Made by a program: the position numbers and the translations under genes. Of a DNA stretch of 64,000 nt, positions 4,155-54,009 are shown piece by piece. How positions within the stretch are numbered: position 1 is the stretch's first letter; each line of letters starts with the position of its first letter. Location: NCBI GenBank assembly GCA_002070055.1, contig MWCM01000005.1, positions 2,015 to 66,014 of the forward strand. Reading direction: 5' to 3'. Source of the DNA: a bacterium ADurb.Bin212. Its GTDB lineage: Bacteria > Patescibacteriota > UBA1384 > XYA2-FULL-43-10. The notes beneath the pieces were generated by a model. It saw only the letters and a program-made list of their open reading frames with translations, had not been told where the DNA came from and did no database searches.

Positions 4155-4411
4155 TTTCCCCTCCCTGCAAACTTATAAAATATCTCTAATCGTAAAAATT
4201 GGGTCAAGTTTGCCAGCACAGCTATTTATCTTGATGCTTCTCTCTTTTCAAACGATCCAGATCAAACACGCCCTTGCCGCTTACCATCATCTCCTCTTTT
4301 CTTTTCTCTTCGTCCTCTTTAAGGAGTTTTTCCTCTATTTGGTCCAGATCCTCTTCTGTAAAAGCATCTGAGTAGTATGACATAGTATAATTATATCAAA
4401 GTTTTTTAAGC

Positions 4412-5113
4412 TTAATCAAAACTCTGGCTCAAGCGTCGTTTTGCCCGAATTATAGAATCCGCTCGCAGCTTAACTCGCAGATCACAAGGCAAAAAATCTA
4501 AGGTAAAATCCCTGCCTTCCAGAATAATTTTTTGATTGCACTGATTAGCAACTTTCTCTATCTCCTTAGCCATAAACTCTATAACTAGGGCTTGATTGTT
4601 AGCAGCGACTTCAGGGACCAGGCATGAGAAGTCCGGGTTATTAATATGCTTTGACAAGTGATGGGCAACATCTACGTCTTGATAGTGCAAATCTAAAGAG
4701 TTTTCAGTTAGAACATACGCGCTCTGCTCTAAGTTGTTTTGATGATTTTTCTCCCCCCTAACCATCTCCAAATAGCATAATAATCTGAAAACCTCTCCAA
4801 AGGAAAATGAAAGGGCGGATAATTCCTCTCTCAAAGCCTTAGCAGTTGAGCTTTTGCCCACGCCGCTCAAACCATCAATAGCAATAATTTTTTCATTGTC
4901 TCTTAGCGCTTTTACAATCTCATCAACCACATTAGATATTCCCACCACCGAACCGGTATCAATATTAATCACCCGCTTTGGCGGTATTTGAACCAAGCCT
5001 TTGGCAATCAAATCTTGCTTGTTAGTATTACTAATTTTACTATCCGCCTCGTCCCTCTCAAGAAGCTGTCTATGTGCTTCTGATAAAGAAGTGTTATTAA
5101 ACTGATCATCCAT
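4412..5113 (-). CDS. cmk: cytidylate kinase (CMP/dCMP kinase) with N-terminal extension
   Basis: P-loop IAIDGLSGVGKSS, and a C-terminal EGRDFTLDFLPCDLRVKLRADSIIRAKRR that matches the Cmk GRDiGTvV...K.FL.A....RA.RR region. An extended -10 TGTTATAAT and an AAGGTGG RBS lie upstream on the minus strand. Confidence 0.65.
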   Translation of the reverse strand: MDDQFNNTSLSEAHRQLLERDEADSKISNTNKQDLIAKGLVQIPPKRVINIDTGSVVGISNVVDEIVKALRDNEKIIAIDGLSGVGKSSTAKALREELSALSFSFGEVFRLLCYLEMVRGEKNHQNNLEQSAYVLTENSLDLHYQDVDVAHHLSKHINNPDFSCLVPEVAANNQALVIEFMAKEIEKVANQCNQKIILEGRDFTLDFLPCDLRVKLRADSIIRAKRRLSQSFD

Positions 5114-5160
5114 CTGCCACCTTTCTTAATGCCACTTTAAGGATTATAACAACTTTGCAC

Positions 5161-5187
5161 AAATAAAAAAATGCGGACTCTCCGCAT
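5161..5187 (-). terminator. rho-independent terminator (hairpin ATGCGGAGAGTCCGCAT followed by a T-run on the minus strand)
   Basis: Perfect 7-bp stem with a 3-nt loop, then TTTTTTATTT on the minus strand. Sits between the GC-rich segment and cmk. Confidence 0.5.
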
Positions 5188-5340
5188 TCATATCTTTAAT
5201 ATAAATCATTAGTTTAATTTTTTTCTAAGCCGAATGTAGAGGGACTCGGTCACACGTATCCGCATGCTGGCGGATCGCTCGACCCCGCCTCGGCGACAGC
5301 CTCGCCTGCGGCTTTCTCGCCCTCTCGGCTATCATACCCA
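5188..5340 (-). ncRNA. candidate small structured RNA of unknown class (GC-rich, terminator-bounded)
   Basis: A ~110-nt GC-rich segment in AT-rich surroundings. It lies between the tRNA-Leu hairpin and a downstream intrinsic terminator on the minus strand. Internal stems AGCCGAGAGGG/CCCUCUACAUUCGGCU, GGCGA/UCGCC and GGCGG/CCGCC. The overlapping 76-aa ORF is implausible. Confidence 0.3.
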
Positions 5341-5379
5341 CCAAACCAAAAAACCAAAAAAATTGGTTTTTTGGTTTGG
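5341..5379 (-). terminator. A/T-only perfect palindrome (15-bp stem, 9-nt loop) abutting the tRNA-Leu 3' end
   Basis: ccaaaccaaaaaacc / ggttttttggtttgg pair perfectly. The encoded CCA of the tRNA is part of the stem. Confidence 0.4.
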
Positions 5380-5461
5380 TGGGCGTAGAGGGACTCGAAC
5401 CCCCATGTCTTGCGACACTAGTTCCTAAGACTAGCGTGTCTACCAATTCCACCATACGCCC
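5377..5461 (-). tRNA. tRNA-Leu (anticodon UAG), type II with long variable arm
   Basis: Manual cloverleaf: acceptor GGGCGTA/TACGCCC, D-stem GTG/CAC with loop GAATTGGTAGA, anticodon stem CTAGT/ACTAG with loop CTTAGGA. Variable arm TGTCGCAAGACAT, T-arm GGGGG-TTCGAGT-CCCTC, discriminator A, encoded CCA. Strongly resembles canonical bacterial tRNA-Leu. Confidence 0.85.
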
Positions 5462-5498
5462 AAAACTTTATCGATTATAGCAGTTTTTTTGTCCTCTG

Positions 5499-6515
5499 TC
5501 ACTCAATATCTCTAACATCACCATACTTTACATATTTAAGTAGAACAAACATCACAGGGTAAACAATTAATCGACCCATTTCACTTTCCAACATAGAAAG
5601 CAAAATCTCTTGCCTCTTTTTTCTTCTAAGCCACTTTTCAATTAGATTCACCCTAAACCTCTCACCCGATATCTCTTTGGCAACCTGCTGTGCGGAGATT
5701 ATTGCCGCGTGCATACCTTTACCGGTTAAGCCTGAGATTAAACCGGCAGCATCGCCTATTAAGAAAATGTCGCCGAAACGATATCCTCTGTAATCGTAGT
5801 TAAGTGTTGCTGCCTGAAATTGACCTTGACTTATATCGATATTCTTCTCTTTTAACCATTTTTCGAAATTACTTCTCAAAAGGGAGCCGGAGATCGACTT
5901 TCTGCTTCCGCCGCAACCCACCGATGTAAATCTTTTATTTGGGAATATCCAAGCGTAGCCGCTACCAAATATTCGGCGATCAAGATATATGCTGAATCTA
6001 TCATAGGTCTGCGGTATCAGATATGTCATACCGTAGGCAATTCTATTATTGCCAAGACCCAGATATTTCCTAACGATAGAGTTAGAACCGTCTGCCCCAA
6101 CCAGGTATTGGTATTCAACGCTTTGGCCATTAATTAAGACCGTTTTTTTGTCGGCTATCTTTACTTTAGCCTCCATTATAATTTCAATATTTGGGTATTG
6201 CCTTAAAGTATCTATACAATTATTTAAATATTTGACCCTATCTATCGAAGAGATTATCGCTCCTCTGCCGGAAAAAGGGAAGGACAACTCAGACCGCCCG
6301 TAATTCATTTCTAGCTTTGATAAAGGATAATTAATCTCTTCACGATCAAAGACGTCTAAGTCACCTCTGGTAATACCATGGCCACAAGCTTTTATGCCTA
6401 AGCTGGAAAATTTTTCTGCAACCAATATCTCGAGTCCGCTTTGAGCCAGCTCAAGAGCAAGCTTAGTGCCGGCGATCCCCGACCCAATAATAATCACATC
6501 GTATTTATTTTTCAT
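5499..6515 (-). CDS. FAD-dependent oxidoreductase, geranylgeranyl-reductase family
   Basis: N-terminal dinucleotide-binding motif DVIIIGSGIAGTKLALELAQSGLEILVAEK and a GDAAG motif (LIGDAAGLISGLTGKG). Confidence 0.65.
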   Translation of the reverse strand: MKNKYDVIIIGSGIAGTKLALELAQSGLEILVAEKFSSLGIKACGHGITRGDLDVFDREEINYPLSKLEMNYGRSELSFPFSGRGAIISSIDRVKYLNNCIDTLRQYPNIEIIMEAKVKIADKKTVLINGQSVEYQYLVGADGSNSIVRKYLGLGNNRIAYGMTYLIPQTYDRFSIYLDRRIFGSGYAWIFPNKRFTSVGCGGSRKSISGSLLRSNFEKWLKEKNIDISQGQFQAATLNYDYRGYRFGDIFLIGDAAGLISGLTGKGMHAAIISAQQVAKEISGERFRVNLIEKWLRRKKRQEILLSMLESEMGRLIVYPVMFVLLKYVKYGDVRDIE

Positions 6516-9812: not shown

Positions 9813-9974
9813 GATATAATTCGCACGCAGCGAAGTGTGTTTTTTGTGTACCTTAACAACTTTTCCTTTGAGCCTAATTAGGAATTAGGCTTTAGGTCTT
9901 AGCTTTTTTGGATAACCTAATTTCCAGCTAGGCTCAAAGGAGTAAAAACAAATCCCCTCAGGAGGGACGCCGCC

Positions 9975-11288
9975 ATGATCGAAACACTGCACATCGCGGC
10001 CGCCTTGGCGGCCATCCTGTCGTTTCACGTCGCATTCAGGTGGGAGAAGGCGGGCGGGCTGATTGTTGTGTACATGGCCTGCCTCTTCTTCCTAACCGGA
10101 GTCCCCGACCCCTTGCGGGCGGGGACGTTGGGCATGGCCATCGGGTTGGGCACTGTGCCCTTCCAGATGTGGTTTATGCTCAGATTCCTGGGAGGGAAGG
10201 CGCTTGGCCTGTGGCTCTACATGAGCTCACTGCCGGCGATCTTTCTCCTGCTGTCCTCGTACCTTAGGGGCAGCCACGAACTTATGGTGCTCGCTGTCCC
10301 CTTCGTTTGGAGCATCATCGAAGTGGGAAGGAGCGAGTGTGGCAGGTTGCGCTACAGCTGGCTCATACCGGCTCATGCGCTTTCCGCTAGGCCGTGGATC
10401 AAGCTCCTCGGAGCAGGTGTCTACGGTTTCAGCTTCCTCGTCATGGCAGCCCTTGCGCTCTGCGCGGTGCTGCCGGCCTACCTCTGGCCGGTCGTCGTTG
10501 GGGCAGCCCTTGGCGCCTTGATCGTTCGGCAGAGCCCCTTCTGGACGCATAAGCACCTTCAGGTGGCCGGCTTCCAGATTGAGGCAGGCGTGGACGGCGG
10601 CACGGGCCTGCGTTTTGCAGGATACGACGAAATCCTGCGCCAACTCCACCGCTGCCTCCACCGCCACCCCAACGCCGAACTGGTAGTGGCACCCGAGTAC
10701 GCGCTACCAGACCAACCCGAGGCAATGCTTCTGGCATGGTGCCGAAAGTTCGGCAAGTGGCTGCTTATCGGCGGCCGGGAACACCTTGACGACGATGGCG
10801 GGTTCAGAAACACCGCCTATCTCGTCTCCCCCCTCGGAGAGGTATTCCGGCAGGGCAAAATGGTGCCCATACCCACGGCACCGGACGGTCTGCCCGCCAC
10901 CGAGCAGAAGCCGCTTCGTAACTCCTTGGGCACTCTTGGCATCTGCATCTGCTACGACCTAAGCTTCGCCTCGGTCGTAGCACCGCTCGTTGAGAGTGGT
11001 GTGCAGGCGCTGGTGGTGCCATCAATGGACCTTGCGGAGTGGGGTCCGCACGAGCACCGGCTTCACGAGAAGTGGGCGAGGATTATGTCCTACGTCTACT
11101 CCTTGTCGGTGTTCCGTGTGGTCTCCTCCGGCCAGTGCCAACTGGTTGATTGCGGAGATGTCCTTGCGGTCAGCCAGGACGGCACCATCGGCGACAACTT
11201 GCCCATGCACTTGGGCGAAGTGCCTACCGACTGGAGGATCCTCCGCCACCTCCTTCCTCCGCTCGTGCGCGCGCCGAGTGAGGAGTAA
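9975..11288 (+). CDS. lnt: apolipoprotein N-acyltransferase (Lnt)-like: polytopic N-terminal domain plus C-terminal CN-hydrolase domain; high-GC
   Basis: About 6 TM helices, then a nitrilase-superfamily domain. Candidate catalytic residues are Glu in LVVAPEYALP, Lys in FRQGKMVPIP and Cys in LGICICYDLSF. Visibly GC-rich relative to the flanks. Confidence 0.7.
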   Translation: MIETLHIAAALAAILSFHVAFRWEKAGGLIVVYMACLFFLTGVPDPLRAGTLGMAIGLGTVPFQMWFMLRFLGGKALGLWLYMSSLPAIFLLLSSYLRGSHELMVLAVPFVWSIIEVGRSECGRLRYSWLIPAHALSARPWIKLLGAGVYGFSFLVMAALALCAVLPAYLWPVVVGAALGALIVRQSPFWTHKHLQVAGFQIEAGVDGGTGLRFAGYDEILRQLHRCLHRHPNAELVVAPEYALPDQPEAMLLAWCRKFGKWLLIGGREHLDDDGGFRNTAYLVSPLGEVFRQGKMVPIPTAPDGLPATEQKPLRNSLGTLGICICYDLSFASVVAPLVESGVQALVVPSMDLAEWGPHEHRLHEKWARIMSYVYSLSVFRVVSSGQCQLVDCGDVLAVSQDGTIGDNLPMHLGEVPTDWRILRHLLPPLVRAPSEE

Positions 11289-11312
11289 CAACTTCTGCGC
11301 ACAGAACACGGA

Positions 11313-11352
11313 AGCCCCGCTCTACCTCGTAGAGTGGGGCTTCTTGCTTTTC
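11313..11352 (+). terminator. intrinsic terminator after the Lnt-like gene
   Basis: GCCCCGCTCTAC-CTC-GTAGAGTGGGGC hairpin followed by TTCTTGCTTTTC. Confidence 0.5.
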
Positions 11353-25978: not shown

Positions 25979-26987
25979 AGACATATTTAAAAAATCCTCT
26001 TCACGAAGAAAAATCGATAGATCTGAAGGAGAAGAAAAAACTCCGGATATTATTTTGAGCACAAACAAGGCCATTGAGATTTTGTCGACACAAAAGCAAC
26101 ATCTAAATTCCAAGCAAGTTGAATTAAGTCTAGACAAAAAGCGTCTTAATAGAAAATTAGACCGCCAGATATTAAGAATCCACAGAACAAAAGAGCAAGT
26201 TGAAAAAAGGATAGAGTTTGTTCGAAACGGCGGCGCCAGGATTTCAATTCCATTCTTAAAGAATTCTGATCTATTTCTGCGCAGAAGACTTCTCTGGTAT
26301 AGGAATTGGCACAACAATTCAATCTCACCCAAACTTCACTTAACCGCCCTTGGGTCTTATCTAATAATCTCTGTCTTTTTAGCTATCATATTTATGCAGG
26401 GTGTGCCCAATAACACCTCCGCCCTTAATTCTGAACACCGTAAAACCTCTTTAGTATCTGCCATCTACACACCAGATAATCTGTCGCTTAAAAATAGCAA
26501 AGTGCAACTGCCTCAAGACGAGAAGCCGATATCTACTTTATATGAAGACAATTTAGCCGTTGACTTTTCCGATAAATCAAGCAAATTGGCCAGTGCTAAA
26601 ATTCGAACCATGGACAAGAACAAGCAAGAGCAATGGGTTGAATTTGTCTTGTTGCAACCGAAGGATTTACAACAACCCAGCTCTGAAAATATCAGCTCGA
26701 ACTCTTTAGTAAGCGCTTCAGCACATGCCGAACCGGACAATAGCCTGGTTGAGGCAAATATCGTTGATGTCACCAAAGAGATCAATAACAGTATAGTAAC
26801 CCTGAATGTTAATAATGCTGTTGCCGCAAAATATGAGGTCTCAAGCAACAATAGTCAAGCCACAGTTAAAGAGACTTTAATTATAGAAGACATTAGCGCA
26901 TTTAGTAAAAATCCCGACTATACGATCTCTTTTAGAGTAAAAACTCAAGGTCTAGCAATAATTCAAAAAGAAAACGGTGCCTATTAG
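25968..26987 (+). CDS. hypothetical coiled-coil/single-TM protein, translationally coupled on both sides
   Basis: Overlaps the TPR gene by 11 nt and the giant gene by 11 nt. Charged coiled-coil N-terminus and TM helix LHLTALGSYLIISVFLAIIFMQGV. Confidence 0.4.
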   Translation: MALKDIFKKSSSRRKIDRSEGEEKTPDIILSTNKAIEILSTQKQHLNSKQVELSLDKKRLNRKLDRQILRIHRTKEQVEKRIEFVRNGGARISIPFLKNSDLFLRRRLLWYRNWHNNSISPKLHLTALGSYLIISVFLAIIFMQGVPNNTSALNSEHRKTSLVSAIYTPDNLSLKNSKVQLPQDEKPISTLYEDNLAVDFSDKSSKLASAKIRTMDKNKQEQWVEFVLLQPKDLQQPSSENISSNSLVSASAHAEPDNSLVEANIVDVTKEINNSIVTLNVNNAVAAKYEVSSNNSQATVKETLIIEDISAFSKNPDYTISFRVKTQGLAIIQKENGAY

Positions 26988-29900
26988 CTTATCTGATTCT
27001 AATGGTTTAACGGTAATGAACATTGAGCCGCCAGTAATTGAAGACAACCGTGGTACCAAAGGTCAAATTAGCCTTGAAATAGTTGACGATGTCGCAACTT
27101 ACTTTATTGATAAAGACTACATCGAAAACGCTGAATATCCGATATTTCTTGACCCTACCGTAACGGTATCAACTTCAACTATCACAAATCCTAATTCATA
27201 TGCCAAAGACCGTACACTCTTAGAAACCAGTGACGGGACATTGGTGAATATATATTCTGACGGTGCCGCCATTAATTATCGCACCTCGTCAGACAAAGGA
27301 GCCAACTGGAGTTCCGCAACAAAAATAACAGATTCAGCAAATGCCGACGATAACGGCTTCTCCGCATGGATTGATGTGGATGATAATATCCATCTTACTT
27401 ACTCGGACAACAACACGAATCCTTACATATTTTACCGTCGCTTGTCTTACAGTTTTGCCACAACTGTCGTCTCAATCGGTGCAGAAAAAACCGTGGAATC
27501 ATCAGGGACCAGCCGTATGTATCCCTCAATTGTAGCCACAGAGTCATCAAACACTATTCACGTCGCTTACCGTTATTACGACGGAAGTGATTACACAATT
27601 AAAGTTAAGTCTAGCAGTGATTTTGGTGATAATTGGAGCGCCGCCTCTACTCTCTCTCCCGCTACCAATGCCAACGCCGCAACCTATCCCTGCGCAATTC
27701 TTTGGAACGACAAACCGGCAATTATTTATAATTATCAAAACGCCTCATTACGTTGGAATTATTACAACGGTAGCAGTTGGCAATCAGAAGGCTGGGACAA
27801 TGAATTGATAACAGCTGAAGTTGATGCTGATACCGGGCTAGAATTTACTGCAATAGAGTCGCCATTCAACAACTATCTACATCTTTCGTGGAGAGGAAGC
27901 GGCACTAACGGCATCAGGTATCTAAAAAACAACAATTCCGTAGCCGGTTGGGATGGAACCTCAACCGCCATAACTGCAGACCATAACGATAGATTTCCAA
28001 GTATTGGCGCCGGCACAAATGATTATATTAACCTTTATTACTCTGATTATGTTGGAGCTAATTCATATAATATCAAGTATATCTCTAAAAGTAGCGCAGG
28101 GTCTTTCGGGGCTGTTAACTCTGTGACCACGGATGACGCAAATAATTTAGTCTCTCATGCTGCCCAGAAAGCAACTTATTACAGGAACAATTCTTTGCTT
28201 TTTGATGGCACAGACGACCATGCCGACCTGCCAGATGGATTCTCCGATTTTACCGGAGGTTTAACATTGGAGTTGTGGGCATATCCTACCGCAGCGCAAA
28301 ATTACGCAAGATTTTTTAATTTTAGCAACGGCGCTCCAAATAACAACATTGTTTTTGGACGCACCGGCACAACGACGAATTTAGCATTTATTGTATGCAA
28401 CGGCACGAGCAGTTGCCCCACGGCAGTGACTGCCACTGGGGTACTTGAACTTAACAAGTGGCAGCATTTTGTCGTCACTCAAAGCGCAGCCGGAGCTGTG
28501 ACCATATATAAAAATGGAGTAAGCGTTGCCACCGGGACTCAGAATATCCCTACAAACATTACTCGCACCATAAATTATATCGGCCGAGGCGCTTGGGTAA
28601 CCGATTCATATTATAAAGGCAACATAGATGGGGTAAGAATTTACAATCGCAGCATTAGTTCAGGAGAGGTTACAGCACATTACCGTAGCGGAATCGGACC
28701 TAAAAAAATCCCCACAGATACAAATCAACTCGCGGCATATAATTTTGATGAGACCAGTGGCACCTCTGGCGCAGACGCTTCGGGAAATTCTATGACTGCC
28801 ACCCTTGTTTCTGGCCCCTCAAATCAGCACAATAGTGTGCCTTATAAAAATTCTAATAATTACGCAATCTACTCCCCCAACTCAAACGGCTACATTTCCA
28901 TTCCCGCCAATGCCTCAACCAATACCAACACAACCAATTTTACAATGGAAGCGTGGGTAAAGGCTAAATCTACCGGCGCTTGGCGTTGGATAATGGGCAA
29001 AAATAATAGTGGTAATTGGCTTGGCATTAACTCGGGCGGATATTTAAACTTTTCCACTGCCGGAGGAGCCAATAATATCTCCTCTACTGCTTATGTTACC
29101 GACGAAAAATGGCACCACGTGGCTGCAACCTTCGACACCGGCACTCTTAAGTTATATATGGACGGCAAAAACACCGATACTTGGACAGGGAAAAGTGTAT
29201 CTGCCCAAACCGGGGCAACTTATATCGGCTATAACGGATATGAATATTATTACGGTTGGATTAACGAAGCAAGGCTTTGGACAAAAACACTATCGGCCGC
29301 TGACATACTTAATCGATTTTCTGCCGGCTTGTTTGCAACTGGTGCACCAGAGGCTAATTTAGGCGGTGGCTGGTCTATGAACGATGCTTCCGGCACTACC
29401 GTAGCCGACTTTAGCGGTAATGGTAATACTGGATCGTTTGTTAACACCCTCTATTTCGATAACGTATTAAAAACCACTCTTTCGACTCCTTCCGTTACTT
29501 TTGTTGAGGGCACAGGTTCACCATACAATATTAAGTGGGGGCCTAAAGCAAAAGTATGGACTGGCATGGGAGCCAACACCAACTGGACAACCGCAGAGAA
29601 TTGGAGCGACGGTGTTGCACCAGTAGGCGGTGACAACCTGTTGTTTGACGGCCCAACCGGTGGCAGTTCGGTTGCCGATTCAGTACCGGACAACCTTGGT
29701 TCCATAGAAATTGTTAAGGAGAGCAGCATAACATTATATTTCAGCAAACATCCATCTACAAACGTTGACACTTTTAAAATTAACTTAACCGGTGATTGTA
29801 TTTTTAATGGGGGCATAGTTCAATCTGAAGGTGATACTACCGTCATGCACGCAGGAATTACAGATGGCCAAGGCAACGAACTATCCGCGTCCAATATTTT

Positions 29901-32900
29901 TGTCGGCCCCTCTGGCATCATTAATTTAGATGGTCTTGGCTTTCCTGCCAGGCAAGGTCCGGGACGCATATACCTGACAAACGACGAGAGAGGTTCCGGG
30001 CATGGCGGACAAGGTGGCGGGAGCCCCTATGGCGGCACAGCTTATGGCGACTTCTCGGACCCTGTTTCACTGGGCAGTGGAAACTACCGTGTAGCCGGAG
30101 GAGGCGCTTTAAAACTTAACGCCAGCCAGTCAATTATATTAGATGGTTCGCTAAGCGCCAACGGCTTAAGTAATTATGGCGGAAGCGCCGGAGGATCTTT
30201 TAATATAAGCGGAACCTATATTGCTGGAGTGGGTAGTGTTAAGGTTAATGGCGGAGCCGGAGACTATGGGACCGGCGGTGGCGGAAGAATTAAATTATCC
30301 TCAAACACTAATAATTTTATCGGCACATTACAGGCCAAAGCAGGAAATCAATCCGCCGGTATCAACGGAGGCGCAGGCACGATATTTAAAAAACTAGCTT
30401 CACAGACTTACGGCGATTTAATTATCGATAACGGCGACGCCACTCAGAACGGGCGCAACCAAACCTCAGCCTATTTAAAAGGCTCAAGTGGCGATACGGG
30501 CAGTTACCAATTTGATTCAATTACATTTAATAACTACGGCAAACTCGAGATTATCTCCGGACAAAGTTTAGCACTTAACAGTGGCACTATTACTGGTACC
30601 AAAACAGCGGGAGTAATAAATGCCGGAACAGTAAGCGTGCCGGACAACTGGTCTCTCAACTACTTCTATTCACATAAAAATGGCACATTATCCGGATGGA
30701 CTCAAACAAATTTAACAATAACCTCTGCCGGTAAATTAACTCATTATATCAATGATTCTACAGACACCTATGGCCTTAATCTAACACTAGATAGTCTAAC
30801 CGTAGATAGTGGAGGTGAGATTGACGTTAGTGAAGTAGGATATGCTTCGCAACAAGGCACAGGCAAAGGTAAGGTTATTACTGGTGGTTATGGCGATGGT
30901 GGTGGTTACGGAGGAGAGGGAGGACGAAACGACACCGATATGACTAGAAGTAACCCTTATGGAGATTATTCTAATCCAACTGAACTTGGTAGTGGCGGCG
31001 CTTACTCAGGTGGCGGCGGCAAAGCTTTATTAACCATAACTGGGACAGCCACAATTAATGGCAGTCTGCTCGCAAACGGACAATCAGCAAACTCCGGAGG
31101 GTCGGGTGGAAGTATTAATTTATCGGCTGCCACAATCACCGGCGGCGGCACAATCACGGCCAATGGTGGTTCGGGTGGCACAATTTACTCCGGTGGCGGC
31201 GGTGGTGGCAGGATACGTCTTGCCTCTACGGCCAACACTTTTAGCGGTACTCTAACCGCCCGAGGAGGCACAGGCTATAGTAGCAATTATTCAGGTGGGC
31301 CAGGAACTATCTATAAAAAACTTTCCAGCCAAAGCTATGGCGATCTAATTATTGATGATAACGGCAATACTCACCACAATAGATATTTTATGGGGGCATA
31401 CTTAAAAGATAAAGCTGACAGCGGTAGCTATCAATTTGATTCAATACAATTCTCTAATTATGGAAAACTTGAAGTTTTAGGAAGTCAGATAATTAATGCA
31501 ACTGCAACAACTATTACCGGCGACAAAAATTCCGGTTTTTCAAACGCTGGCACAATTAATCTACCCTCTACATGGAACCTCTCCTATTTATATATGCACA
31601 AAGGGGGCACAATAAGTGATCTTGCTAATAAATCGATTGTAGTGACATCAACCGGCTTCCTGACACATTATTTTAACAACTCCGAAGAGACATATTCAAT
31701 AAATTGGACATTAAATTCAGTTGAGGTGCAGACTAACGGCGAAATTAATACTACAAACAATGGTTATGCCGCCAATAATGGCCTCGGGCCCGGAGCATCA
31801 GCTGGCACGCCTTCTGGCTCTGGTGGTGGTGCATACGGCGGAAACGGTGCTGCTGGCACAGTTGGTGCAGGCGGAACTGCCTACGGCTCGGTAACAAACC
31901 CGACCAATCTTGGTTCAGGTGGCGGTGGCGGAGCTAATGCCGGTGGCGGTGCAATTATTCTAAATGTTAATACTCTGAATTTGTCCGGAACACTTGCCGC
32001 AAACGGAGCTGATAGTGCCGCCAATGATTACGCAGGAGGTGGTGCAGGGGGCAGCATAAATATCACTGCTAATACAATCAGTGGTTCTTCTGGCTCAATT
32101 ACTGCTAACGGCGGCTACAGTAAATGGAGAGGTGGCGGTGGCGGTGGCGGTAGAATTGCCATAAATTACACCACTGACTCATACACAGGCGGTCTATCGT
32201 CTCTAGCAATCTCCGCCAAAGGCGGCATGAACGGAGTGACTTGGGGTGAAGATGGTACACGCAAAGGTGCCGCCGGAACTATATATATCAAAAAAACCTC
32301 CGATGCTTACGGCAGTCTGAAGATTGATAATGCTGTAGCCACCACTACTGTAGCTAGGACCCCTTTGACTCTTCCATTGGCTTATAGCAATGTTACAATT
32401 TCTAATTACGGCAAAGCTACCATATCGACCAACGCTGATACGGCTCAGAACACTTTGGCCGTGAACGGAAATTTAACCGTGGGTGCAAACTCCGAGCTGA
32501 TACTCAACTCCGATAACGATGGCACTCCTGCCGCTGGGGCTTGGCCAATTATTACTGTGACTGGTGATGCTAATATTTCCGGTTCTGTTACCTCTAACGC
32601 TACCGGCTATATACATGATCTGGGCAGTGGCAAGGGCAACATAAGCGGTTCTTATGGTTCTGGTGCAGGGTATGGCGGCAGTGGTGGCAATTCCGCCAAC
32701 GGAGCAATTGGTGGGGTAACTTATGGCACAGAACGTGACAATAACTATATTGGAAGCGGAGGCGGTGGGGCAAATGGTGGGGCAGGTGGCGGCATGATAA
32801 AAATGTCGGTATCCGGATCTCTTGATCTAAGCAACACCGGAACTATTGCAAGCAACGGTGGAGCTGGGGGCACAGACGGTGGCGGTGGTTCTGGAGGTTC

Positions 32901-35900
32901 AATTCAGATCGTTTGCACTACTCTATCCGGCTCGGCTGGTAGCACCATCTCAAGCAATGGCGGAGCCGGAGGAGCAAATGGTGGCGGAGGCGGTGGTGGT
33001 AGAATAACAATTTATCCATCCAATGATAGTTATCTTGGCACTCTAACGGCAACCGGCGGTTCCGCCGGTTCTGGTGGAGCCACTGCTGGAACAAACGGCA
33101 CAGCAATTATTCAACACACACCTGGCTCCCTGACTATGAACTCACCTAACGACGCCGCTACTGATCAAATACAAAAAACAGTATTTCGCTTTAACTCGAC
33201 AGACATCGACAACGACTGGATACAATACAAATTACAGATTGCCGCAGATATAAACTTCAGCGATGGCGTTTCCACCTTTGACCAAACTCTCTCTCAAAAC
33301 CCAAGTAGTGGAGGTAGAAGCGCAATATTCTCCAATCAAGACAGAACCACGGGCAATGTCGCCGGAAGTGACGGATACTCTTCGGGCAGAGAAGCAATTC
33401 TCACACTGCAAACAAATCTGACTCAGGCAAGAACATACTATTGGAGATTCTACGCTTATGATCCAGAAGGAGTCGACTCTTTTGACGGCAGCCAGCACTG
33501 GTCACCAGCTTCAAGCATCAGATCGTTTACTGTTGCAAGCATCGACCATATTTCGTTCTCGACACCCCAACAAGAGAGCGTTGTTACTTTCTGTTCTGCA
33601 GTTATGACTGTAAATTTAAGAGACTCGAGTAATAACAATATCTACTTAACAGAGGACGACGGCCCCACAGCACTACAACTTAGCGCTGATTCAGCTTCAG
33701 GCTCATTTTATTCCGATTCAGATTGTGAGACGGCTATACCTAGCGATCAGGTTATAGTTGCAGTTTCTGGTAACTCTGCCAGTTTTTTCTACAAGGACAA
33801 CCAACCTTCGCCGGTAAACAATTATTTTACAATCACGGTTGCTGAAACACCATCTGAAGGATTAACAGATGCTACTCAACAGATAAGAATTAAGCCAGGC
33901 GATTTAGGGTCTTTTGAAATATCAGGGGCTCCGGTATCAATAGTTGCCGGTGCGGCTTTCTCTTCTCCAACAAACGACATTACCGTAACTGTAAAAGATA
34001 TTTTTGGGAACACAAAGAACGATTGGACCGGGCAAATCTGGTTCTATTCCTCCGATTCGCAAGCTGATTTAGTCTATGACGACTCAAATAAATATTCATT
34101 CACTTCCGGCGAAGGTCTGGATAACGGCACACACACTTTTGATGGCGGAAACTTCGTCTTAAAAACCAAAGGTAATCAATCTTTAGTAGTCCACAACTCA
34201 AGTGGTGGTGAATACGACGAAGTGGTAGCTATAACCGTTAACCCTGCGGCTATAGACCACTTCTCTCTCAGCGACTACCCACGCACAGCCAGCGGAAAAT
34301 TCGCCATGAGTTCTTTTTCTTGGGACACACCAGGATATTCAGACGCTCCATACGACCCGATTGTCACAGCATACGACCTTTACGGAAACATAAAAGATGA
34401 TTATGTTGGAGAAACATGGTTTGAACTCTACAAATCCACCGATGCGGCCGGTAATCCTTTGGATTCTAGCGCAAATTATGCCTTTGATTACGATTATACT
34501 AATCACTATACTTTTACCTCGGGTGACGGATTAGATAATGGCACTCACACTTTTGATGGCTCCGGCTTTACAGTAGTAACCGCAGCCAACGATCTACGCC
34601 TCAGAGTAAAAACTTCGGCGAATGGAGGTGTTTACACCGACTTTACGATAACAGTGAAGCCTCAATCGATTGACCACTTCCTTATTAGCTCAACTCCAAC
34701 CCTCTCCAGAAATGGAATAGATTGGGACAAAGAAGTAGACGAGGAGTTCATCGAAGACATCACCGTCACTGCATACGATACCTTTGGCAATGTAAAAACA
34801 GATTATTATTATAACGACGCAACAAAAGCCGGCATGATCTACTTCTATTCAAGCGACCCGCGCGCCGTACTTCCCTATTCCAAAACAGTCAGCACAGATT
34901 CCTCTGCCTGTTTAGCCTTCCCGCAAGCTGCCAACGGTTCTTATACTTTAGATACAACCAACACCCCCTTAAACTACTTTAAATTCTTAACAGGGGGGCC
35001 ACAAACGATCTCAGTTTCAGAATGTATTGATCCTACCTCTGCATACGCCACTGGAACTGATAATAAATATGACCCTAGGCTCGAAGGAGTAAATCCGCTC
35101 AAAGTTATGGCCGCAACGGGCCAAATCCCCGCCACAGGTGATGATCCAAATAAAATATTTGTAGCTAATCATGTGCCCGGCTCAACCCACACAGCAGTCG
35201 ACCATTCTGACGATTCGAACGATCTTATCGAAGCTGGACCAGGCCATGAGCAGGCAACTCTTTCTTGGACTAATCCCTTTGATATCCCAAGCGACCCCGC
35301 TCTTGACGCTCAGGCATATATTTATCGTTGCACAACAAACTGTGAAAATATCGCAAACTTTAGTAGGATTATTACAGATCCGGCCACAATTAGCGTAACC
35401 GCTGGAGAAGTTTCTGAATACACCGATACAGGGCTAACAAATGGAACCGAATATTTTTACAAGCTCTCTTATGCTTATAAACGACAGGATGATAGTTATA
35501 TCGAGAGCAACAAATCAATCACAGTCAGCACAACTCCGGCAGACATTGCACCAAGAAATATCTCTGCCTCACAACTTGATATAAGTGACAGCACAAACCC
35601 GGGCAAGGTAAGAGTGGACTATCAACTACGTTGGGATTCGACTGTTTCCTTGGCATACTATAACCCTGCCACCAACTCATGGCATAATGCATCACCTAGC
35701 GCCATGAGCGGAGATGTGGGCCCCGGCATCACTGGAGATGAAGCACTAATATCTCACACCGCTTATTTGGACCCTAACATTGATTTCGACGGTCAATATT
35801 TAACCGATACCTTTAAGGTTAGGGTTAAGGTAACAGTCAACTCAGCCAGCACTTATGCCGATTCAGCGACTCTTGATCTTGATTCAAAAAATCCGGCTGG

Positions 35901-45993: not shown

Positions 45994-46025
45994 AGCGCCC
46001 CCTATGCGTTGGGGGCGCTTTTGTT
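45994..46025 (+). terminator. intrinsic terminator after the sortase gene
   Basis: AGCGCCCCC-TATGCGTT-GGGGGCGCT hairpin followed by TTTGTT. Confidence 0.55.
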
Positions 46026-46319
46026 CTTTGGGATATCATCCCCTTTCTTCGGCCGCTTGCACCACGGCCAGTGATACTGCCCGCAATACGGGCAGGGTTG
46101 CTTGCGCCGGTTGGGGTAACCTACCGGACGCGGGGGCACTACGGGTCCAACGGGCCCGATCGGCATAGTATCCAACCCCTTTCATTTTCAACGGTTCTGA
46201 ATTGGCAACTTTTTATAACATTTTTTGACGATATTCGCAACATTTTTTGCTTTACAAATTTTGCAAAAAGTTATAGTATTACTTATCGTCGCAACATCGA
46301 CTCCAAGCGAGGTAAAGCC

Positions 46320-47036
46320 ATGCCCGAATTGACTATCGCCACATTCCTGACACTGCCGTTCACGATGGGCACAAGAGTGGCTATCTCCCAAGGGTGGCTA
46401 TACTCCATGGACGAGGTAGTCATTCACCCTGGCATTACCCACCACAACGGGGTGGACTTCGCCTGCCCATGGGGTACACGCGTACTGGTGCCGGCCGACG
46501 GTGTGGCAGTAGCCAGCTACCACACCTACTACATGGGTGATTTCCATGGTCGTCTGATCGGCTATGGGCTAGGGTTGTTTGTGCAGATCTGGCACCCCGA
46601 GGCCCAACTCTTCACCTCTTACGCACACCTATCCAAGGCGTCTAAGGAGATTCCCTACATCTCACCGGTCCGCCAGGGCGACAGTTGGCAACCGGCGGCA
46701 GCCATCTATGTGCCGCTGGAGGTGTTTCTGGCGCAAGGTGTTGAGGTGAAACGGGGTGACTATCTTGGCGAAGTTGGCCGCACAGGCCTACTGCTCCACG
46801 ACGAGACACCCAGCAACCCCCCAGCAACCAAGGCGACCGACCCCACTTGGGATCCTGCAGGTGATCACTTGCACTGGGAGTGCTACAGACGCACACTCGA
46901 CGGCCTCCGCAAGGACCCTGAGGCGCGCTGCGACCCCTTCGGTGTCTATGGCCTCCGCGAGGCCTACAACATCAACAAAGCTAGCGGTCTGTTGCTGGCC
47001 GGCCCCAAGGGCAGACCCCTATGGGCCAACGAGTGA
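46320..47036 (+). CDS. M23-family (LytM-like) metallopeptidase (high-GC island)
   Basis: HPGITHHNGVDFACPWGTRVLVPADGVAVASY (HxxxD ... GT.V.A...G.V) and GDHLHWE (HxH). RBS GAGGT before the ATG at 46320. The longer upstream ORF extension is non-coding GC-rich sequence. Confidence 0.7.
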   Translation: MPELTIATFLTLPFTMGTRVAISQGWLYSMDEVVIHPGITHHNGVDFACPWGTRVLVPADGVAVASYHTYYMGDFHGRLIGYGLGLFVQIWHPEAQLFTSYAHLSKASKEIPYISPVRQGDSWQPAAAIYVPLEVFLAQGVEVKRGDYLGEVGRTGLLLHDETPSNPPATKATDPTWDPAGDHLHWECYRRTLDGLRKDPEARCDPFGVYGLREAYNINKASGLLLAGPKGRPLWANE

Positions 47037-51875: not shown

Positions 51876-51904
51876 TTGACTTAAATTGTATTTTGTGCTA
51901 TAAT
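51876..51904 (+). promoter_or_regulatory. near-consensus sigma70 promoter TTGACT-N17-TATAAT upstream of the muramidase-amidase gene
   Basis: TTGACT 51876-51881, a 17-nt spacer, TATAAT 51899-51904. AAGGAGG RBS at 51985-51991, 8 nt before the ATG at 52000. Confidence 0.5.
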
Positions 51905-51999
51905 TGCTTAATTCTCTAAAGCAGAGATATATTTTTTGTTGCATAAAAATACTCCCTGCTTCAGCAGGACAAGCATCACAATCGAAGGAGGCGAGGCGC

Positions 52000-54009
52000 A
52001 TGAAAGCGCTCTCCTACGCCGTATTTGTTGTTCGGTTGTTGTGGTACATGGTGTGGGGAGGGGCTTACGCCATATCCTCCTTCATCATTGTGCCATTCTT
52101 CATCGCGCTGGCACGGCTACTAGTTGCCGTGCTAAAGCAGTGCTGGGGCAACCTGGCCTGCTTCTACAAGAGGTGGGTCAAGAGGAGTGGCCTGGGCCGT
52201 GTGCTTCTTTGGCACGGTGCCGCCTTCGTCGTAATCATGGTTGTCGTCGGCTCATGGGGAGACGCACCGCGCACGCCCCAAGCCGGAAGCAACCAGGCAA
52301 AGGAGCAGGTGGCACCCGCTACCACTCCCGAGCCCATGGACAAAAAGCCCGAGGAGAAGCCTGCGCCTGCAGAGGTAAAGGATACTTCTCCGAAGGGGGC
52401 GCTAGGCAAGGGCGCATGGATCATCGAGCTGGACGAGGCCGAACTTGGCCAAGTCAAACAGATCAAAGATCCGGAGGCTCGCCAGAGTGCGCAGGTAAAG
52501 GCGGTTGTGGCTAAGGCCAAGAAAAACGGCCTGGGGCATATCATCGTCAAGACTGCCCACTTCGGTAAGCCGTATGGCAGCTGCCCGCCCGAGATGGCGC
52601 GTGAACTTGGCGAAGCCTGCCGCAAGGCTGGCATCCGCTGCTTCGGCTACGGCCGAATTCTAGCGGACGATGCTGATGCCGAAGCGGAGATGGCCAAGCG
52701 AGCCATGCGCCCTGCCAGAGATGGCGGGCTCGGGCTCGATGGCTACGTCTTTGACGCCGAAGGAGAGGTTAAGGGCAAAGATAAGAATCTGCGCCTAATC
52801 CTCGCTGATGTCAAAAGCTGGCTTAAGGCTGCGGCGCCTAATAAGCGCCTTGGCTACTCCAGCTTCGGCATCCCCTCCTACCACAGAGGACTCGCTTGGG
52901 ACACACTCAACGAGTTCTGTCACTACGCCATGCCTCAGTTGTATTGGCGCAGTTGGCAGAGTACTCAGAAGTGGTCCTTGGATGAGTCCCTTGGCAAGTC
53001 GCTCGCCTCTTGGCGCGACTGCCCTCTGCCGGTGGTGCCCACCGTGCAGAGCTACTCAGGAAAGCTTGGCGGCGTAGCCCGTGTCGAACCAGCCAAGATG
53101 AAGAAGTTCCTGGCCGGCCTCGACACAAGCTCCGGCTTCAACTCCTTCCGCTGGGACTATACGGGCCCAGAGCAGTGGCAGGTAATCCGCGACTTTAAGT
53201 GCGGGCAACCTAGTTACAAGCTCAAAGTTCCGGCGGAAGGCAAGCAGACTAGTGCCGCCTCGACCACCATGCCCAAGATGCCGCTTGAGCCAACTGGCAA
53301 AGGCGACCTCACCGGCATGGTTGTGGTCATCGACCCCGGCCACGGTGGCACCGACCCCGGCATGGGTTGGAAGGTGGAATGGAAGAAGAGCGGCAAGGCC
53401 CACAAACTCAAAGCGTGGGAAGCCGCCGTCACCTACCCCACCTCCTGGCAACTGGCCGCCACCCTACGATCCCGAGGTGCTTACGTCTACCTCACCGCCT
53501 GGGACCCGATCATGGCCCAGGTGCCGACGGGCGCTCGGGATCTACCGTTGCCGAGGAAAGCAACCTTCACGGACGACTGCAAGAAAGTCCGCGGAGGCAT
53601 GTTTTCGCAGCGCTTTGCCACAGTTTCGACTGCGGTTAAGCGCTTCGACGCCTCCGGAAAGAAACTGGGCTGGCGCCATGTTGCCTTCGTCAGCATCCAT
53701 GTGGACTCGCTCGGTGGAAATGTGAGCGGTGCCCACGCTGTTTGCTGGCCGGGAGATGTTGACCTTGGCGAACCGATCGCAGCTGAACTTGCAAAGATCG
53801 GCGTTGCCACACCCGGCAGACCACTCTGGGAGAAGACGAAGAGGATGGGCATCATTGCCCCAAGTAACGTTCCCCTTCGTCTCCGACTGGTGGTCGAGAT
53901 GGGAGTCCCGGCCAACGATGGCGGTGACTCATGGCGACTGCGATCACAAAAGCATCGACAGAAAATCATCGATGCCATCGCCAACGGCCTCGCCGCCGTT
54001 AACGACTAG
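52000..54009 (+). CDS. membrane-anchored bifunctional peptidoglycan hydrolase: GH25-like muramidase domain plus C-terminal N-acetylmuramoyl-L-alanine amidase (Amidase_3) (high-GC island)
   Basis: N-terminal TM/signal anchor, then a Pro/Ala/Lys linker. GH25-like blocks LGHIIVKTAHFGKPYG, GIRCFGYG, LDGYVFDAEGE and MPQLYWRSWQ, compared with the GH25 pattern FVIIKATEG...G.YHF...LWLD.E...PLWIA.Y. Amidase_3 signature MVVVIDPGHGGTDPGM. Confidence 0.6.
   Translation: MKALSYAVFVVRLLWYMVWGGAYAISSFIIVPFFIALARLLVAVLKQCWGNLACFYKRWVKRSGLGRVLLWHGAAFVVIMVVVGSWGDAPRTPQAGSNQAKEQVAPATTPEPMDKKPEEKPAPAEVKDTSPKGALGKGAWIIELDEAELGQVKQIKDPEARQSAQVKAVVAKAKKNGLGHIIVKTAHFGKPYGSCPPEMARELGEACRKAGIRCFGYGRILADDADAEAEMAKRAMRPARDGGLGLDGYVFDAEGEVKGKDKNLRLILADVKSWLKAAAPNKRLGYSSFGIPSYHRGLAWDTLNEFCHYAMPQLYWRSWQSTQKWSLDESLGKSLASWRDCPLPVVPTVQSYSGKLGGVARVEPAKMKKFLAGLDTSSGFNSFRWDYTGPEQWQVIRDFKCGQPSYKLKVPAEGKQTSAASTTMPKMPLEPTGKGDLTGMVVVIDPGHGGTDPGMGWKVEWKKSGKAHKLKAWEAAVTYPTSWQLAATLRSRGAYVYLTAWDPIMAQVPTGARDLPLPRKATFTDDCKKVRGGMFSQRFATVSTAVKRFDASGKKLGWRHVAFVSIHVDSLGGNVSGAHAVCWPGDVDLGEPIAAELAKIGVATPGRPLWEKTKRMGIIAPSNVPLRLRLVVEMGVPANDGGDSWRLRSQKHRQKIIDAIANGLAAVND

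What the first reader, a model, noticed from the sequence alone, without database searches (positions are those of the whole stretch)
5161..5461. Terminator-bounded GC-rich ~110-nt candidate ncRNA beside tRNA-Leu, with a duplicated tRNA 3'-end 13-mer and a 15-bp perfect A/T palindrome
Downstream of tRNA-Leu on the minus strand there is first a 39-nt A/T-only perfect hairpin that includes the encoded CCA. Next comes an abrupt ~110-nt GC-rich segment with nested stems, then an intrinsic terminator, and only then the cmk promoter. The GC-rich segment contains CGAGTCCCTCTAC, an exact 13-nt repeat of the tRNA T-arm/acceptor 3' region. A duplicated tRNA 3' end is the classic footprint of site-specific integration at a tRNA gene, and it could also indicate a tRNA-derived small RNA. 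The ORF called here (5225..5455) overlaps the tRNA and is not credible.
Basis: seen in the sequence. Interest (0 to 1): 0.55.

Follow-up and report, generated by a model that had tools for sequence, protein, structure and literature searches.

The report
Structured trailer element behind tRNA-Leu
Directly behind a leucine tRNA gene of an uncultured Patescibacteria-type bacterium lies a ~150-base folded, non-coding cassette that ends in a copy of the tRNA's own tail; related bacteria carry the same cassette, a variant of it, or nothing, so it is a small undescribed tRNA-linked element rather than a chance pattern or a gene.

Summary
On the minus strand the order is promoter, tRNA-Leu(TAG) 5461..5377, a perfect 21-bp hairpin (5383..5337, not A/T-only, overlapping the tRNA's last 7 nt), a 63-70% GC three-way junction (5330..5228), an exact 13-mer repeat of the tRNA T-loop/T-stem (5248..5236), a terminator (5189..5169), and then the cmk promoter.

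Rfam gives nothing but the tRNA. The 76-aa ORF is spurious. No integrase or transposase turned up among 30 tested ORFs of the window.

Homologous "type A" cores (78-88% identical) follow tRNA-Leu(TAG) in two distant metagenomic lineages (ComEA 43% identical). Stems are kept through compensatory changes, and the second tRNA-end copy is complete to CCA. Closer relatives carry a different body with the same ends (type B), a third type, or no element. In each lineage the second copy matches its own tRNA, 25/25 in one.

Best reading: a tRNA-derived, modular, patchily distributed trailer cassette, co-transcribed with tRNA-Leu and kept for its fold. The direct repeat looks like a site-specific-recombination or duplication footprint. 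Function is untested. Moderately interesting; a new variant of known kinds (displaced tDNA fragments, rtT-like trailer RNAs).

The parts
5474..5502 (-). Promoter-like site of the tRNA-Leu transcription unit (GTGACA, 17-nt spacer, TG-extended TATAAT; 11 of 12 matches)
5377..5461 (-). tRNA-Leu, anticodon TAG, CCA encoded; the only tRNA in the window
   Evidence: ARAGORN; Rfam RF00005, 59 bits
5337..5383 (-). Hairpin H: perfect 21-bp arms with a 5-nt loop. The 5' arm starts with the last 7 nt of the tRNA (CCCACCA), and the 3' arm ends in UGGUGGG.
   Evidence: I1. The homologous hairpin in L021 has two compensatory pairs (read from alignment A4). An analogous CCA-pairing hairpin is present in L033.
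5329..5336 (-). Linker UAUGAUAG. The GAUAG motif is kept after the hairpin in L021 (UUAGAUAG) and L033 (UUUGAUAG), and as GAUAA in type B.
5228..5330 (-). GC-rich core, a three-way junction. P1 pairs 5330..5319 with 5245..5228. P2 is 5311..5285. P3 is 5284..5248, with conserved loop AGCA.
   Evidence: Fold. Pair counts on A5: 92% of cells paired against 36-47% when slid, and 7 of 30 pairs changed on both sides. Covariance model hits of 120-129 bits occur only in the window, L021 and L027.
5236..5248 (-). Second copy of the tRNA T-loop/T-stem/acceptor start (CGAGUCCCUCUAC). It forms the 3' strand of P1. It is what remains here of a 20-21-nt copy that reaches the CCA in relatives.
5169..5189 (-). 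Intrinsic terminator (9-bp stem, then UUUUUAUUU) that ends the tRNA-trailer transcript. Homologous terminators lie upstream of cmk in relatives.
5143..5152 (-). Extended -10 (TGTTATAAT) of the separate cmk promoter. It is conserved in relatives with and without the element, as TG(T/C)TATAAT in L014, L004 and L018 and as TGATATAAT in L016 and L017.
   Evidence: Sequence reading
4412..5113 (-). Cytidylate-kinase-like gene downstream (context, not part of the element)
   Evidence: Pfam PF02224

Best explanation
The region 5383..5228 is a non-coding, tRNA-derived 'trailer cassette' of the tRNA-Leu(TAG) transcription unit.

Transcription (inferred from layout). It starts at the promoter at 5502..5474, reads through the tRNA, hairpin H and the GC-rich core, and stops at the terminator 5189..5169.

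Composition (shown). The cassette has three parts:
- a long hairpin whose 3' arm (UGGUGGG) pairs with the tRNA's own ACCA end;
- a three-way junction closed by a stem, P1, whose two strands are an inverted and a direct partial copy of the tRNA T arm;
- the remnant of a direct copy of the tRNA 3' end.

It belongs to a small family found only behind tRNA-Leu(TAG) in some related Patescibacteria-type lineages. The family has conserved ends and interchangeable middles (types A, B and C). In each lineage the second tRNA-end copy matches the cognate tRNA.

Origin (inferred). The cassette most likely entered or formed by recombination at the T loop of the tRNA gene, either integrase-type insertion or inverted-plus-direct partial duplication. 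That event left the direct repeat.

What keeps it (partly shown). Selection acts on the fold of the sense-strand RNA.

Role (inferred, not shown). I take it to act in cis on the precursor. The 18-22-bp duplex abutting the acceptor stem and sequestering the CCA would define where and when the 3' end of tRNA-Leu is released, as a double-strand-specific cut or as a block to exonucleases and to RNase P's CCA contact. The compact core would then be left as a stable by-product RNA.
For: - Layout on one strand, inside one promoter-terminator unit.
- Type A core homologues behind tRNA-Leu(TAG) in L021 and L027. The covariance model scores 120-129 bits there and finds nothing else in 229 kb, including the whole window.
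- The core is 88% identical between the window and L021, although their ComEA proteins are 43% identical.
- Structure is kept: 92% of cells pair, against 36-47% in slid controls, and 7 of 30 pairs changed on both sides. The P3 distal stem ATCCGC/GCGGAT is replaced by AAAUUU/AAAUUU around the same AGCA loop, and P2 has A-U against C-G.
- G-U pairs, one of them invariant, lie on the tRNA-sense strand. The sense strand folds 3-5 kcal/mol better than the antisense strand in all three type A copies, and 13 kcal/mol better in L033.
- Hairpin H is kept between the window and L021 with two compensatory pairs. A CCA-pairing hairpin of different sequence is present in L033.
- The tRNA can keep its full acceptor stem next to an 18-bp H at a cost of 1.5 kcal/mol relative to the MFE.
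- tRNA-derived pieces: the direct copy is significant in all six loci. The inverted T-arm copy matches 19 of 22 in type B (p=0.007) and is an exact 9-mer in L033 (p about 0.05).
- The second copy tracks each lineage's own tRNA, 25/25 in L033.
- The part of the second copy retained in the window is exactly the part that pairs in P1. The lost tail is replaced by AGCCGA/UCGGCU pairing.
- Not coding.
Against: - There are no expression or processing data. Co-transcription is inferred from promoter and terminator consensus matches only.
- Only three type A sequences exist. Five of the seven compensated pairs come from a single block replacement between two very close relatives (L021 and L027, ComEA 94% identical). 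That looks like a swap rather than gradual compensatory evolution.
- The fold of the window's core alone is weakly significant (z -2.3).
- The element is absent from several relatives that have a working tRNA-Leu (L004/L038, L042, L044, L045). It is therefore dispensable.
- L027 lacks hairpin H, so H cannot be essential to the core.
- The distribution disagrees with the host tree. This fits horizontal transfer of a selfish or neutral cassette as well as it fits selection.
- The inverted tRNA-copy signal is not significant in the window itself.
Confidence: 0.45

Rival explanations
1. Decaying scar of integrase-mediated integration at the T loop of tRNA-Leu. An island once sat between the regenerated tRNA and its displaced 3' fragment, almost all of it was deleted, and the leftover arms have no present function.
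For: - The direct repeat has the classical form: it starts in the T loop and runs to the CCA or just beyond. A regenerated target plus a displaced fragment marks the ends of tDNA islands (PMC4383910).
- Empty sites exist in relatives.
- The 3' half of the second copy decays differently in each lineage: truncated in the window and L014, with different single mutations in L021 and L027.
- GC content departs from the genome.
- The locus is hypervariable: inserts of 0, about 60, about 125, about 150, 690 and 2,900 nt between tRNA-Leu and the next gene.
Against: - No integrase in the 30 tested ORFs of the window or in the L016 and L018 inserts. No match in viral contigs.
- A neutral scar should not be 88% identical between lineages whose ComEA is 43% identical, nor keep stems through compensatory changes.
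- att arms are usually A/T-rich protein-binding DNA, not GC-rich hairpins (own knowledge).
Confidence: 0.22
2. Non-autonomous mobile mini-cassette, comparable to cis-mobilizable remnants of integrative elements. It is moved in trans by a recombinase encoded elsewhere and targets the tRNA-Leu T loop. Its hairpins would be the recombination substrate, as folded single-stranded or cruciform DNA.
For: - Patchy distribution that disagrees with the host tree.
- The window and its closer relative L014 share an identical tRNA and the downstream flank (GGCUUAG.AAAAA ... terminator) but carry different bodies, type A against type B.
- Conserved ends with variable middles. P1 acts as terminal inverted repeats.
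- Perfect 25-bp flanking repeat in L033.
- The tRNA gene is inverted at the same locus in L045 and L046.
Against: - Single copy: no other copy in 64 kb of the window or in any other fetched locus. No recombinase was identified.
- G-U pairs and the sense/antisense energy asymmetry point to RNA rather than duplex DNA.
- The element always has the same orientation as the tRNA and lies upstream of the terminator.
Confidence: 0.18
3. Degenerate tandem (and inverted) duplicate of the tRNA-Leu gene, that is, a pseudo-tRNA left by unequal crossing-over or template switching, as with the repeats behind E. coli tyrT.
For: - In type B the similarity to the tRNA extends 28 nt upstream of the 3' end, through the T arm (L014).
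- By eye, a 72-nt stretch of type B ending in the CCA has 6 of 7 acceptor pairs and an anticodon-like hairpin with UUAGG.
- The inverted T-arm copy is significant in type B.
- The tyrT operon carries rttR, which encodes rtT RNA, next to the tyrosine tRNA genes (10.1101/2024.07.17.603846). That the tyrT repeats each carry the tRNA's 3' terminal nucleotides is own knowledge.
Against: - ARAGORN and the Rfam tRNA model call no second tRNA in any locus.
- The type A P2 and P3 have no detectable similarity to the tRNA.
- The left edge of the repeat falls in the T loop in all three types, which independent slippage events would not predict.
Confidence: 0.1
4. Chance: an unrelated GC-rich spacer plus a coincidental 13-mer.
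For: The fold z-score of the core alone is only -2.3.
Against: The 13-mer repeat is expected 0.04 times. Homologous elements are found in four or more other lineages, and the covariance model gives E-values of 1e-42 or lower.
Confidence: 0.01

Closest known systems
Displaced tDNA fragments (attL/attR) left by tyrosine-integrase islands in tRNA genes (Islander principle, PMC4383910; Williams 2002, NAR 30:866, recalled from memory)
   Same: An intact tRNA gene is followed, in direct orientation, by a copy of its 3' part that begins in the T loop and runs to or just past the CCA. Relatives have empty sites. The intervening DNA differs in composition from the genome.
   Different: Only 105-150 non-coding bases lie between the repeats. 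There is no integrase, the element is not in viral contigs, and the intervening sequence is a conserved folded structure, part of it built from tRNA pieces.
E. coli tyrT operon distal repeats and rtT RNA (rttR; Rfam RtT)
   Same: Sequence behind a tRNA gene, co-transcribed with it, that carries copies of the tRNA's 3' terminal nucleotides and yields a processed trailer RNA (10.1101/2024.07.17.603846, plus own knowledge).
   Different: There is no sequence or model similarity: Rfam finds nothing beyond the tRNA. It is a single unit rather than a 178-bp tandem array, it has an inverted tRNA piece and a three-way junction, and it comes from a different phylum.
3' external transcribed spacer RNAs of tRNA operons (3'ETS-leuZ, a sponge for RyhB/RybB; mentioned in PMC6191717)
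   Same: A functional RNA derived from the stretch between a tRNA-Leu 3' end and the operon terminator.
   Different: 3'ETS-leuZ is a short, Hfq-dependent, largely linear sponge. Here a ~150-nt highly structured domain has no known partner, and Hfq-type networks are not established in these organisms.
tRNA-like processing signals (plant mitochondrial t-elements, MALAT1 mascRNA)
   Same: tRNA-derived structure placed in a longer transcript where tRNA-processing enzymes could act. L033 ends in an 8-bp acceptor-like hairpin plus ACCA.
   Different: There is no cloverleaf, the tRNA models do not score it, and the window copy has lost the acceptor/CCA part.
MITEs and palindrome-associated elements
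   Same: Small, non-coding, hairpin-rich, with inverted-repeat ends and a patchy distribution.
   Different: It is single copy, strictly linked to one tRNA gene and one orientation, and flanked by a 13-25-bp repeat of the tRNA end rather than a short target duplication.

Membership tests
Integrase-type island or att scar at a tRNA gene | Intact tRNA gene plus a displaced cognate 3' fragment in direct orientation | tested here: met
   13/13 in the window. 20/20 in L016, 20/21 in L021 and L027, 25/25 in L033.
Integrase-type island or att scar at a tRNA gene | Integrase gene between the tRNA gene and the fragment; island of kilobase size | tested here: not met
   136 nt lie between the two 13-mers (149 nt start to start). 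The only ORF there is spurious. 30 window ORFs have housekeeping or cell-surface domains or no hit, none recombinase-like. The L016 and L018 insert ORFs have no integrase hit.
Integrase-type island or att scar at a tRNA gene | Empty site in related genomes | tested here: met
   In L004/L038 and L044 the tRNA-Leu is followed directly by a terminator.
Integrase-type island or att scar at a tRNA gene | Matching attP on a phage or other mobile element | tested here: not met
   Viral-contig scans gave 0 hits for the tRNA end. Hits to core patterns were chance matches and are not confirmed by the covariance model. Plasmid and genome collections were not scanned for attP.
Any described RNA family (Rfam 15: RtT, tmRNA, T-box, 6S, SRP, RNase P, self-cleaving ribozymes, riboswitches) | Covariance-model score at or near the family threshold | tested here: not met
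   Only tRNA passes. The best other matches in 5226..5336 score far below gathering, for example L20_leader at 15.4 against 58.7 bits. The same holds for L015, L021, L027 and L033.
tRNA or tRNA pseudogene (second copy) | Cloverleaf recognised by ARAGORN or the Rfam tRNA model | tested here: not met
   One tRNA per locus. No second RF00005 hit at E<=10 in the window, or at E<=1 (L015, L021, L027) and E<=5 (L033) in the relatives.
Structured ncRNA or cis-RNA element (generic) | Homologues with stems kept through compensatory changes | tested here: met
   7 of 30 pairs changed on both sides, and 92% of cells pair against 36-47% in slid controls. Caveat: only three sequences, and five of those pairs come from one block replacement.
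Structured ncRNA or cis-RNA element (generic) | A transcript that covers the element | not testable with these tools
   Only the promoter and terminator consensus sites that bracket the tRNA and the element.
MITE or IS-derived repeat | Multiple dispersed copies; short target-site duplication; cognate transposase | tested here: not met
   No second copy by BLAST or covariance model in the window or in 33 other loci. The flanking repeat is 13-25 bp of tRNA. No transposase domains.
Intrinsic terminator (for hairpin H) | G+C-rich stem followed by a U tract | tested here: not met
   H is followed by UAUGAUAG and is not called by the scan. The scan calls 5189..5169 instead.
Protein-coding gene (ORF 5225..5455) | Homologues, a domain, or a conserved open frame | tested here: not met

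The most novel reading that the evidence does not exclude
The cassette is a cis-acting RNA switch on tRNA maturation. An 'anti-3'-end' strand (UGGUGGG ... AGAGGG) can pair either with the tRNA's own CCA, acceptor and T-stem strand, holding the precursor in an unprocessable form, or with the downstream decoy copy of that strand (P1 and the second copy), releasing the tRNA. The cell could then tune the supply of its CUN-decoding tRNA-Leu. The cassette would spread between lineages by recombination at the T loop. A more remote variant: the folded core plus the 20-nt tRNA-matching 3' tail acts as a scaffold-plus-guide RNA for an RNA-guided enzyme that targets the tRNA-Leu gene.
Probability: 0.1. 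Interest if true: 0.75.

Novelty: new variant of a known kind. Interest (0 to 1): 0.42.

Why it matters
If the cassette is a functional RNA, it would be a new structured RNA family specific to tRNA trailers in the genome-reduced Patescibacteria, organisms in which very few non-coding RNAs are described. It would also be an example of a tRNA gene's own 3' end being reused, in both orientations, to build a neighbouring RNA fold.

If it is instead a recombination product, it shows that the tRNA-Leu(TAG) T loop is an active exchange point in these bacteria even though no integrase is nearby. It would also show that 100-150-nt non-coding cassettes, not only kilobase islands, can occupy such sites.

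Either way it warns annotators that the GC-rich block attracts spurious ORF calls: a 76-aa ORF here, and a called 67-aa 'gene' in L014.

Tried and rejected
1. Rfam at permissive thresholds on the window, L015, L021, L027 and L033 gave only tRNA, and the rest is noise (miRNA-like hits on the hairpin).
2. I searched for more copies through spurious-ORF translations of the element in the 5.8-billion-protein set. There was no candidate (one search failed on query length).
3. Viral contigs. The tRNA-end 20-mer gave 0 hits. The core 19-mer gave one hit inside a high-GC phage coding region, a chance match. Two degenerate patterns returned 7 and 100 stretches; the 87 that became loci (L047-L133) were screened, and the covariance model confirmed none.
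4. Integrase, transposase or RNA-guided nuclease nearby. Pfam on 30 window ORFs and Pfam plus PHROGs on the ORFs of the L016, L018, L040 and L041 inserts gave none.
5. Second tRNA or tmRNA: ARAGORN was negative everywhere.
6. Hammerhead or other ribozyme cores: I inspected the junction sequences by eye (CGAGAAAG, GAG, CGAGU). There is no CUGANGA/GAAA arrangement and no Rfam support.
7. An inverted copy of the tRNA in the window's own trailer is not significant by local alignment (p=0.55), although it is in type B.
8. An alternative P2 pairing (CC[G/A]G with C[C/T]GG) is compensated between L021 and L027 but does not form in the window. This is left open.
9. Several loci from the metagenome scan (L019, L020, L022-L026, L028-L031) share only the 23-nt tRNA end and are unrelated organisms or contexts.

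Full report
**Source and local anatomy.** The window is part of contig JAKJEL010000001.1 of assembly GCA_022705445.1. Its cytidylate kinase carries the source name 'bacterium ADurb.Bin212'. Relatives found through that protein are labelled Saccharibacteria, Patescibacteria or Berkelbacteria.

The minus strand reads as follows:
- A promoter-like site, GTGACA, 17-nt spacer, TG-extended TATAAT, at 5502..5474.
- tRNA-Leu(TAG) with encoded CCA at 5461..5377.
- A perfect hairpin with 21-bp arms at 5383..5337, whose first 7 nt are the tRNA's CCCACCA.
- The linker UAUGAUAG.
- A block of 63-70% GC at 5330..5228, in a 43% GC window. It folds as a three-way junction.
- The 13-mer CGAGUCCCUCUAC at 5248..5236, which forms the 3' strand of the closing stem P1. 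It is an exact copy of tRNA positions 5397..5385 (0.04 matches expected).
- An intrinsic-terminator-like site at 5189..5169.
- A separate TG-extended -10 element, then cmk at 5113..4412.

The sequence is identical in three independent assemblies. The hairpin, however, is 47 nt, not 39, and contains G and C.

**What it is not.**
- Rfam 15 finds only the tRNA, at gathering and at E<=10.
- The ORF 5225..5455 overlaps the tRNA and has no Pfam hit. Its element part has no relative among 5.8 billion proteins. No frame stays open across the homologous copies.
- There is no second copy of the GC-rich block in the window.
- Thirty of the 47 ORFs of at least 150 aa in the window were scanned. They have housekeeping or cell-surface domains or no hit, and none is recombinase-like.

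**Relatives.** I reached related loci in three ways: cmk homologues, one metagenome scan for the tRNA's last 23 nt, and ComEA homologues. The conserved neighbourhood is RecG, ComEA, tRNA-Leu(TAG), sometimes cmk, then a small acidic protein. The stretch behind the tRNA is hypervariable:
- L004/L038 and L044: the terminator follows directly.
- L042: an A/T-rich spacer.
- L045/L046: the tRNA gene lies on the other strand.
- L017: about 60 nt.
- L018: 690 nt.
- L016: a cassette followed by 2.7 kb with two ORFans.

Three cassette types share one architecture.
- *Type A* (window, L021, L027). These have the same GC-rich core. In L021 and L027 the second tRNA-end copy runs to the CCA (CGAGTCCCCCTACGCCCACCA and CGAGTCCCTCTACTCCCACCA).
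- *Type B* (L014/L015, L016). This type has a different middle, but the same 5' motif (GAUA..AGAGGGGCGAAGAA) and the same 3' end (GUGAGAGUCCCUCUACGCC...). The second copy is 20/20 in L016.
- *Type C* (L033-L035). Its tRNA has a different T arm and acceptor. The ~150-nt trailer ends in a 25/25 copy of that tRNA's own end plus 6 further bases.

In every case the repeat begins inside the T loop.

**Evidence for a maintained fold.** On the alignment of the three type A cores, 92% of cells in the P1/P2/P3 model form standard pairs, against 36-47% when partners are slid. Seven of 30 pairs change on both sides.
- The distal P3 stem is ATCCGC/GCGGAT in the window and AAAUUU/AAAUUU in L027, around the same AGCA loop.
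- The inner P2 stem has A-U in the window where the other two have C-G.
- Several G-U pairs, one of them invariant, lie on the tRNA-sense strand. That strand folds 3-5 kcal/mol better than its complement in all three copies, and 13 kcal/mol better in L033.
- Hairpin H of the window and L021 align without gaps and differ by two compensated pairs.
- L033 has a hairpin of different sequence that also pairs the CACCA end.
- A covariance model built from the three cores scores them at 120-129 bits. It scores type B only weakly, through the shared ends (13-16 bits). It finds nothing else in 229 kb of held sequence or in 770 kb of viral contigs.

Caveats: there are only three sequences. Most of the compensated pairs come from one block replacement between two near-identical hosts (L021 and L027, ComEA 94%). 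The window's core alone has a fold z-score of only -2.3.

**tRNA-derived composition.** Local alignment of each trailer against its own tRNA confirms the direct copy in all six loci. In L014 the similarity extends 28 nt, through the T arm. An inverted T-arm copy is significant in type B (TAGAGGGGCGAAGAACCCCCAT against the reverse complement TAGAGGGACTCGAACCCCCAT, p=0.007). In L033 it is an exact 9-mer (GACTCGAAC). It is not significant in the window.

The window's P1 5' strand (GAGAGGGCGAG) aligns with that inverted piece of type B. The architecture is therefore sense (tRNA end), antisense, body, sense. The antisense piece can pair with either sense copy.

In the window, the part of the second copy that survives is exactly the part used in P1. 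The lost CCCACCA tail is replaced by sequence that extends P1 (AGCCGA/UCGGCU).

**Distribution.** The type A core is 88% identical between the window and L021, whose ComEA proteins are 43% identical. Relatives at 56-63% ComEA identity carry type B, other inserts or nothing.

The window and L014 share an identical tRNA and the flank downstream of the second copy, but have different bodies.

This fits strong selection with repeated loss. It fits cassette exchange by recombination at the repeats equally well.

**Interpretation.** I commit to a tRNA-derived trailer cassette that is transcribed with tRNA-Leu and kept for its RNA fold. It probably acts in cis on 3'-end maturation.

An 18-bp H can coexist with the full acceptor stem at a cost of 1.5 kcal/mol. 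In that state H stacks directly on the acceptor stem and sequesters the ACCA. This is a plausible double-strand cleavage site, or a block to exonucleases and to the CCA contact of RNase P. These processing roles rest on established knowledge of the enzymes and are inferred here, not shown.

The direct repeat is best read as the footprint of the recombination that created or delivered the cassette. Its form matches displaced tDNA fragments of integrase islands (PMC4383910), but the integrase criterion fails.

The rivals are a functionless scar, a non-autonomous mobile mini-cassette and a pseudo-tRNA from partial duplication. They are not excluded and are scored separately.

**Comparison with known systems.** The closest analogues are:
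- att scars at tRNA genes;
- the tyrT distal repeats and rtT RNA of E. coli (10.1101/2024.07.17.603846);
- 3'ETS-leuZ (PMC6191717).

None is homologous. The combination of a CCA-pairing hairpin, an inverted-plus-direct T-arm stem and a GC-rich three-way junction is not represented in Rfam 15.

I rate it a new variant of known kinds, of moderate interest. Function is untested, and the family is so far seen in only about five lineages.

Noticed in passing
window 9938-11348, 45994-47097, 52098-54076: Long islands of 70-72% GC inside coding DNA of a 43% GC genome. The ORFs are 9975..11288 (weak CN_hydrolase hit), 46071..47036 (M23 peptidase) and 51904..54009 (701 aa, amidase_3). This may reflect low-complexity or acquired segments.
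   Followed up: partly
window 26977-37689 (+): A single ORF of 3,570 aa. It was not analysed.
   Followed up: no
window 4222-4383 (-); L021 1953-2141; L033 2369-2554: A small, very acidic protein (53-62 aa) with no Pfam hit is conserved at this locus in all relatives. In L021, L027 and L033 its ATG lies 6-7 nt after a TGTTATAAT box, which suggests a leaderless mRNA.
   Followed up: partly
window 5134-5156 and 5465-5487: The tRNA-Leu and cmk promoter regions share a 23-nt repeat at 78% identity (ACTTTA..GATTATA.C).
   Followed up: no
window 5096-5109 and 5205-5218: A 14-nt, 86% inverted repeat links the tRNA trailer (just upstream of the terminator) with the start of the cmk coding sequence (ATGATCAGTTTAAT, beginning 4 nt after the ATG). 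It may be chance in A/T-rich sequence.
   Followed up: no
L045 956-1042; L046 657-743: The tRNA-Leu(TAG) is the same as in L033, but it is encoded on the opposite strand between ComEA and the acidic protein, with its own terminator and no cassette. The tRNA gene has been inverted at this locus.
   Followed up: partly
L018 2309-3000: A 690-nt insert between tRNA-Leu and cmk. It starts with the same TCCCACGT as type B, contains a called 35-aa ORF, and has a GC-rich folded stretch carrying the AAGAGGGCGAGAACC motif. It has no second tRNA-end copy.
   Followed up: partly
L016 215-3000: After the second tRNA-end copy comes a hairpin resembling the one after the first copy. Then follow 2.7 kb with two ORFans (413 and 303 aa; no Pfam or PHROG hit) before the cmk terminator and promoter.
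   Followed up: partly
L021 and L027, element columns 31-46 of alignment A5: An alternative P2 pairing (CCGG/CCGG in L021, CCAG/CUGG in L027) is compensated between these two close relatives but cannot form in the window. Two mutually exclusive hairpins may exist.
   Followed up: partly
L014 1770-1973: The source annotation calls a 67-aa 'gene' across the type B cassette. Like the window's 76-aa ORF, it is very likely a spurious call on structured non-coding sequence.
   Followed up: no
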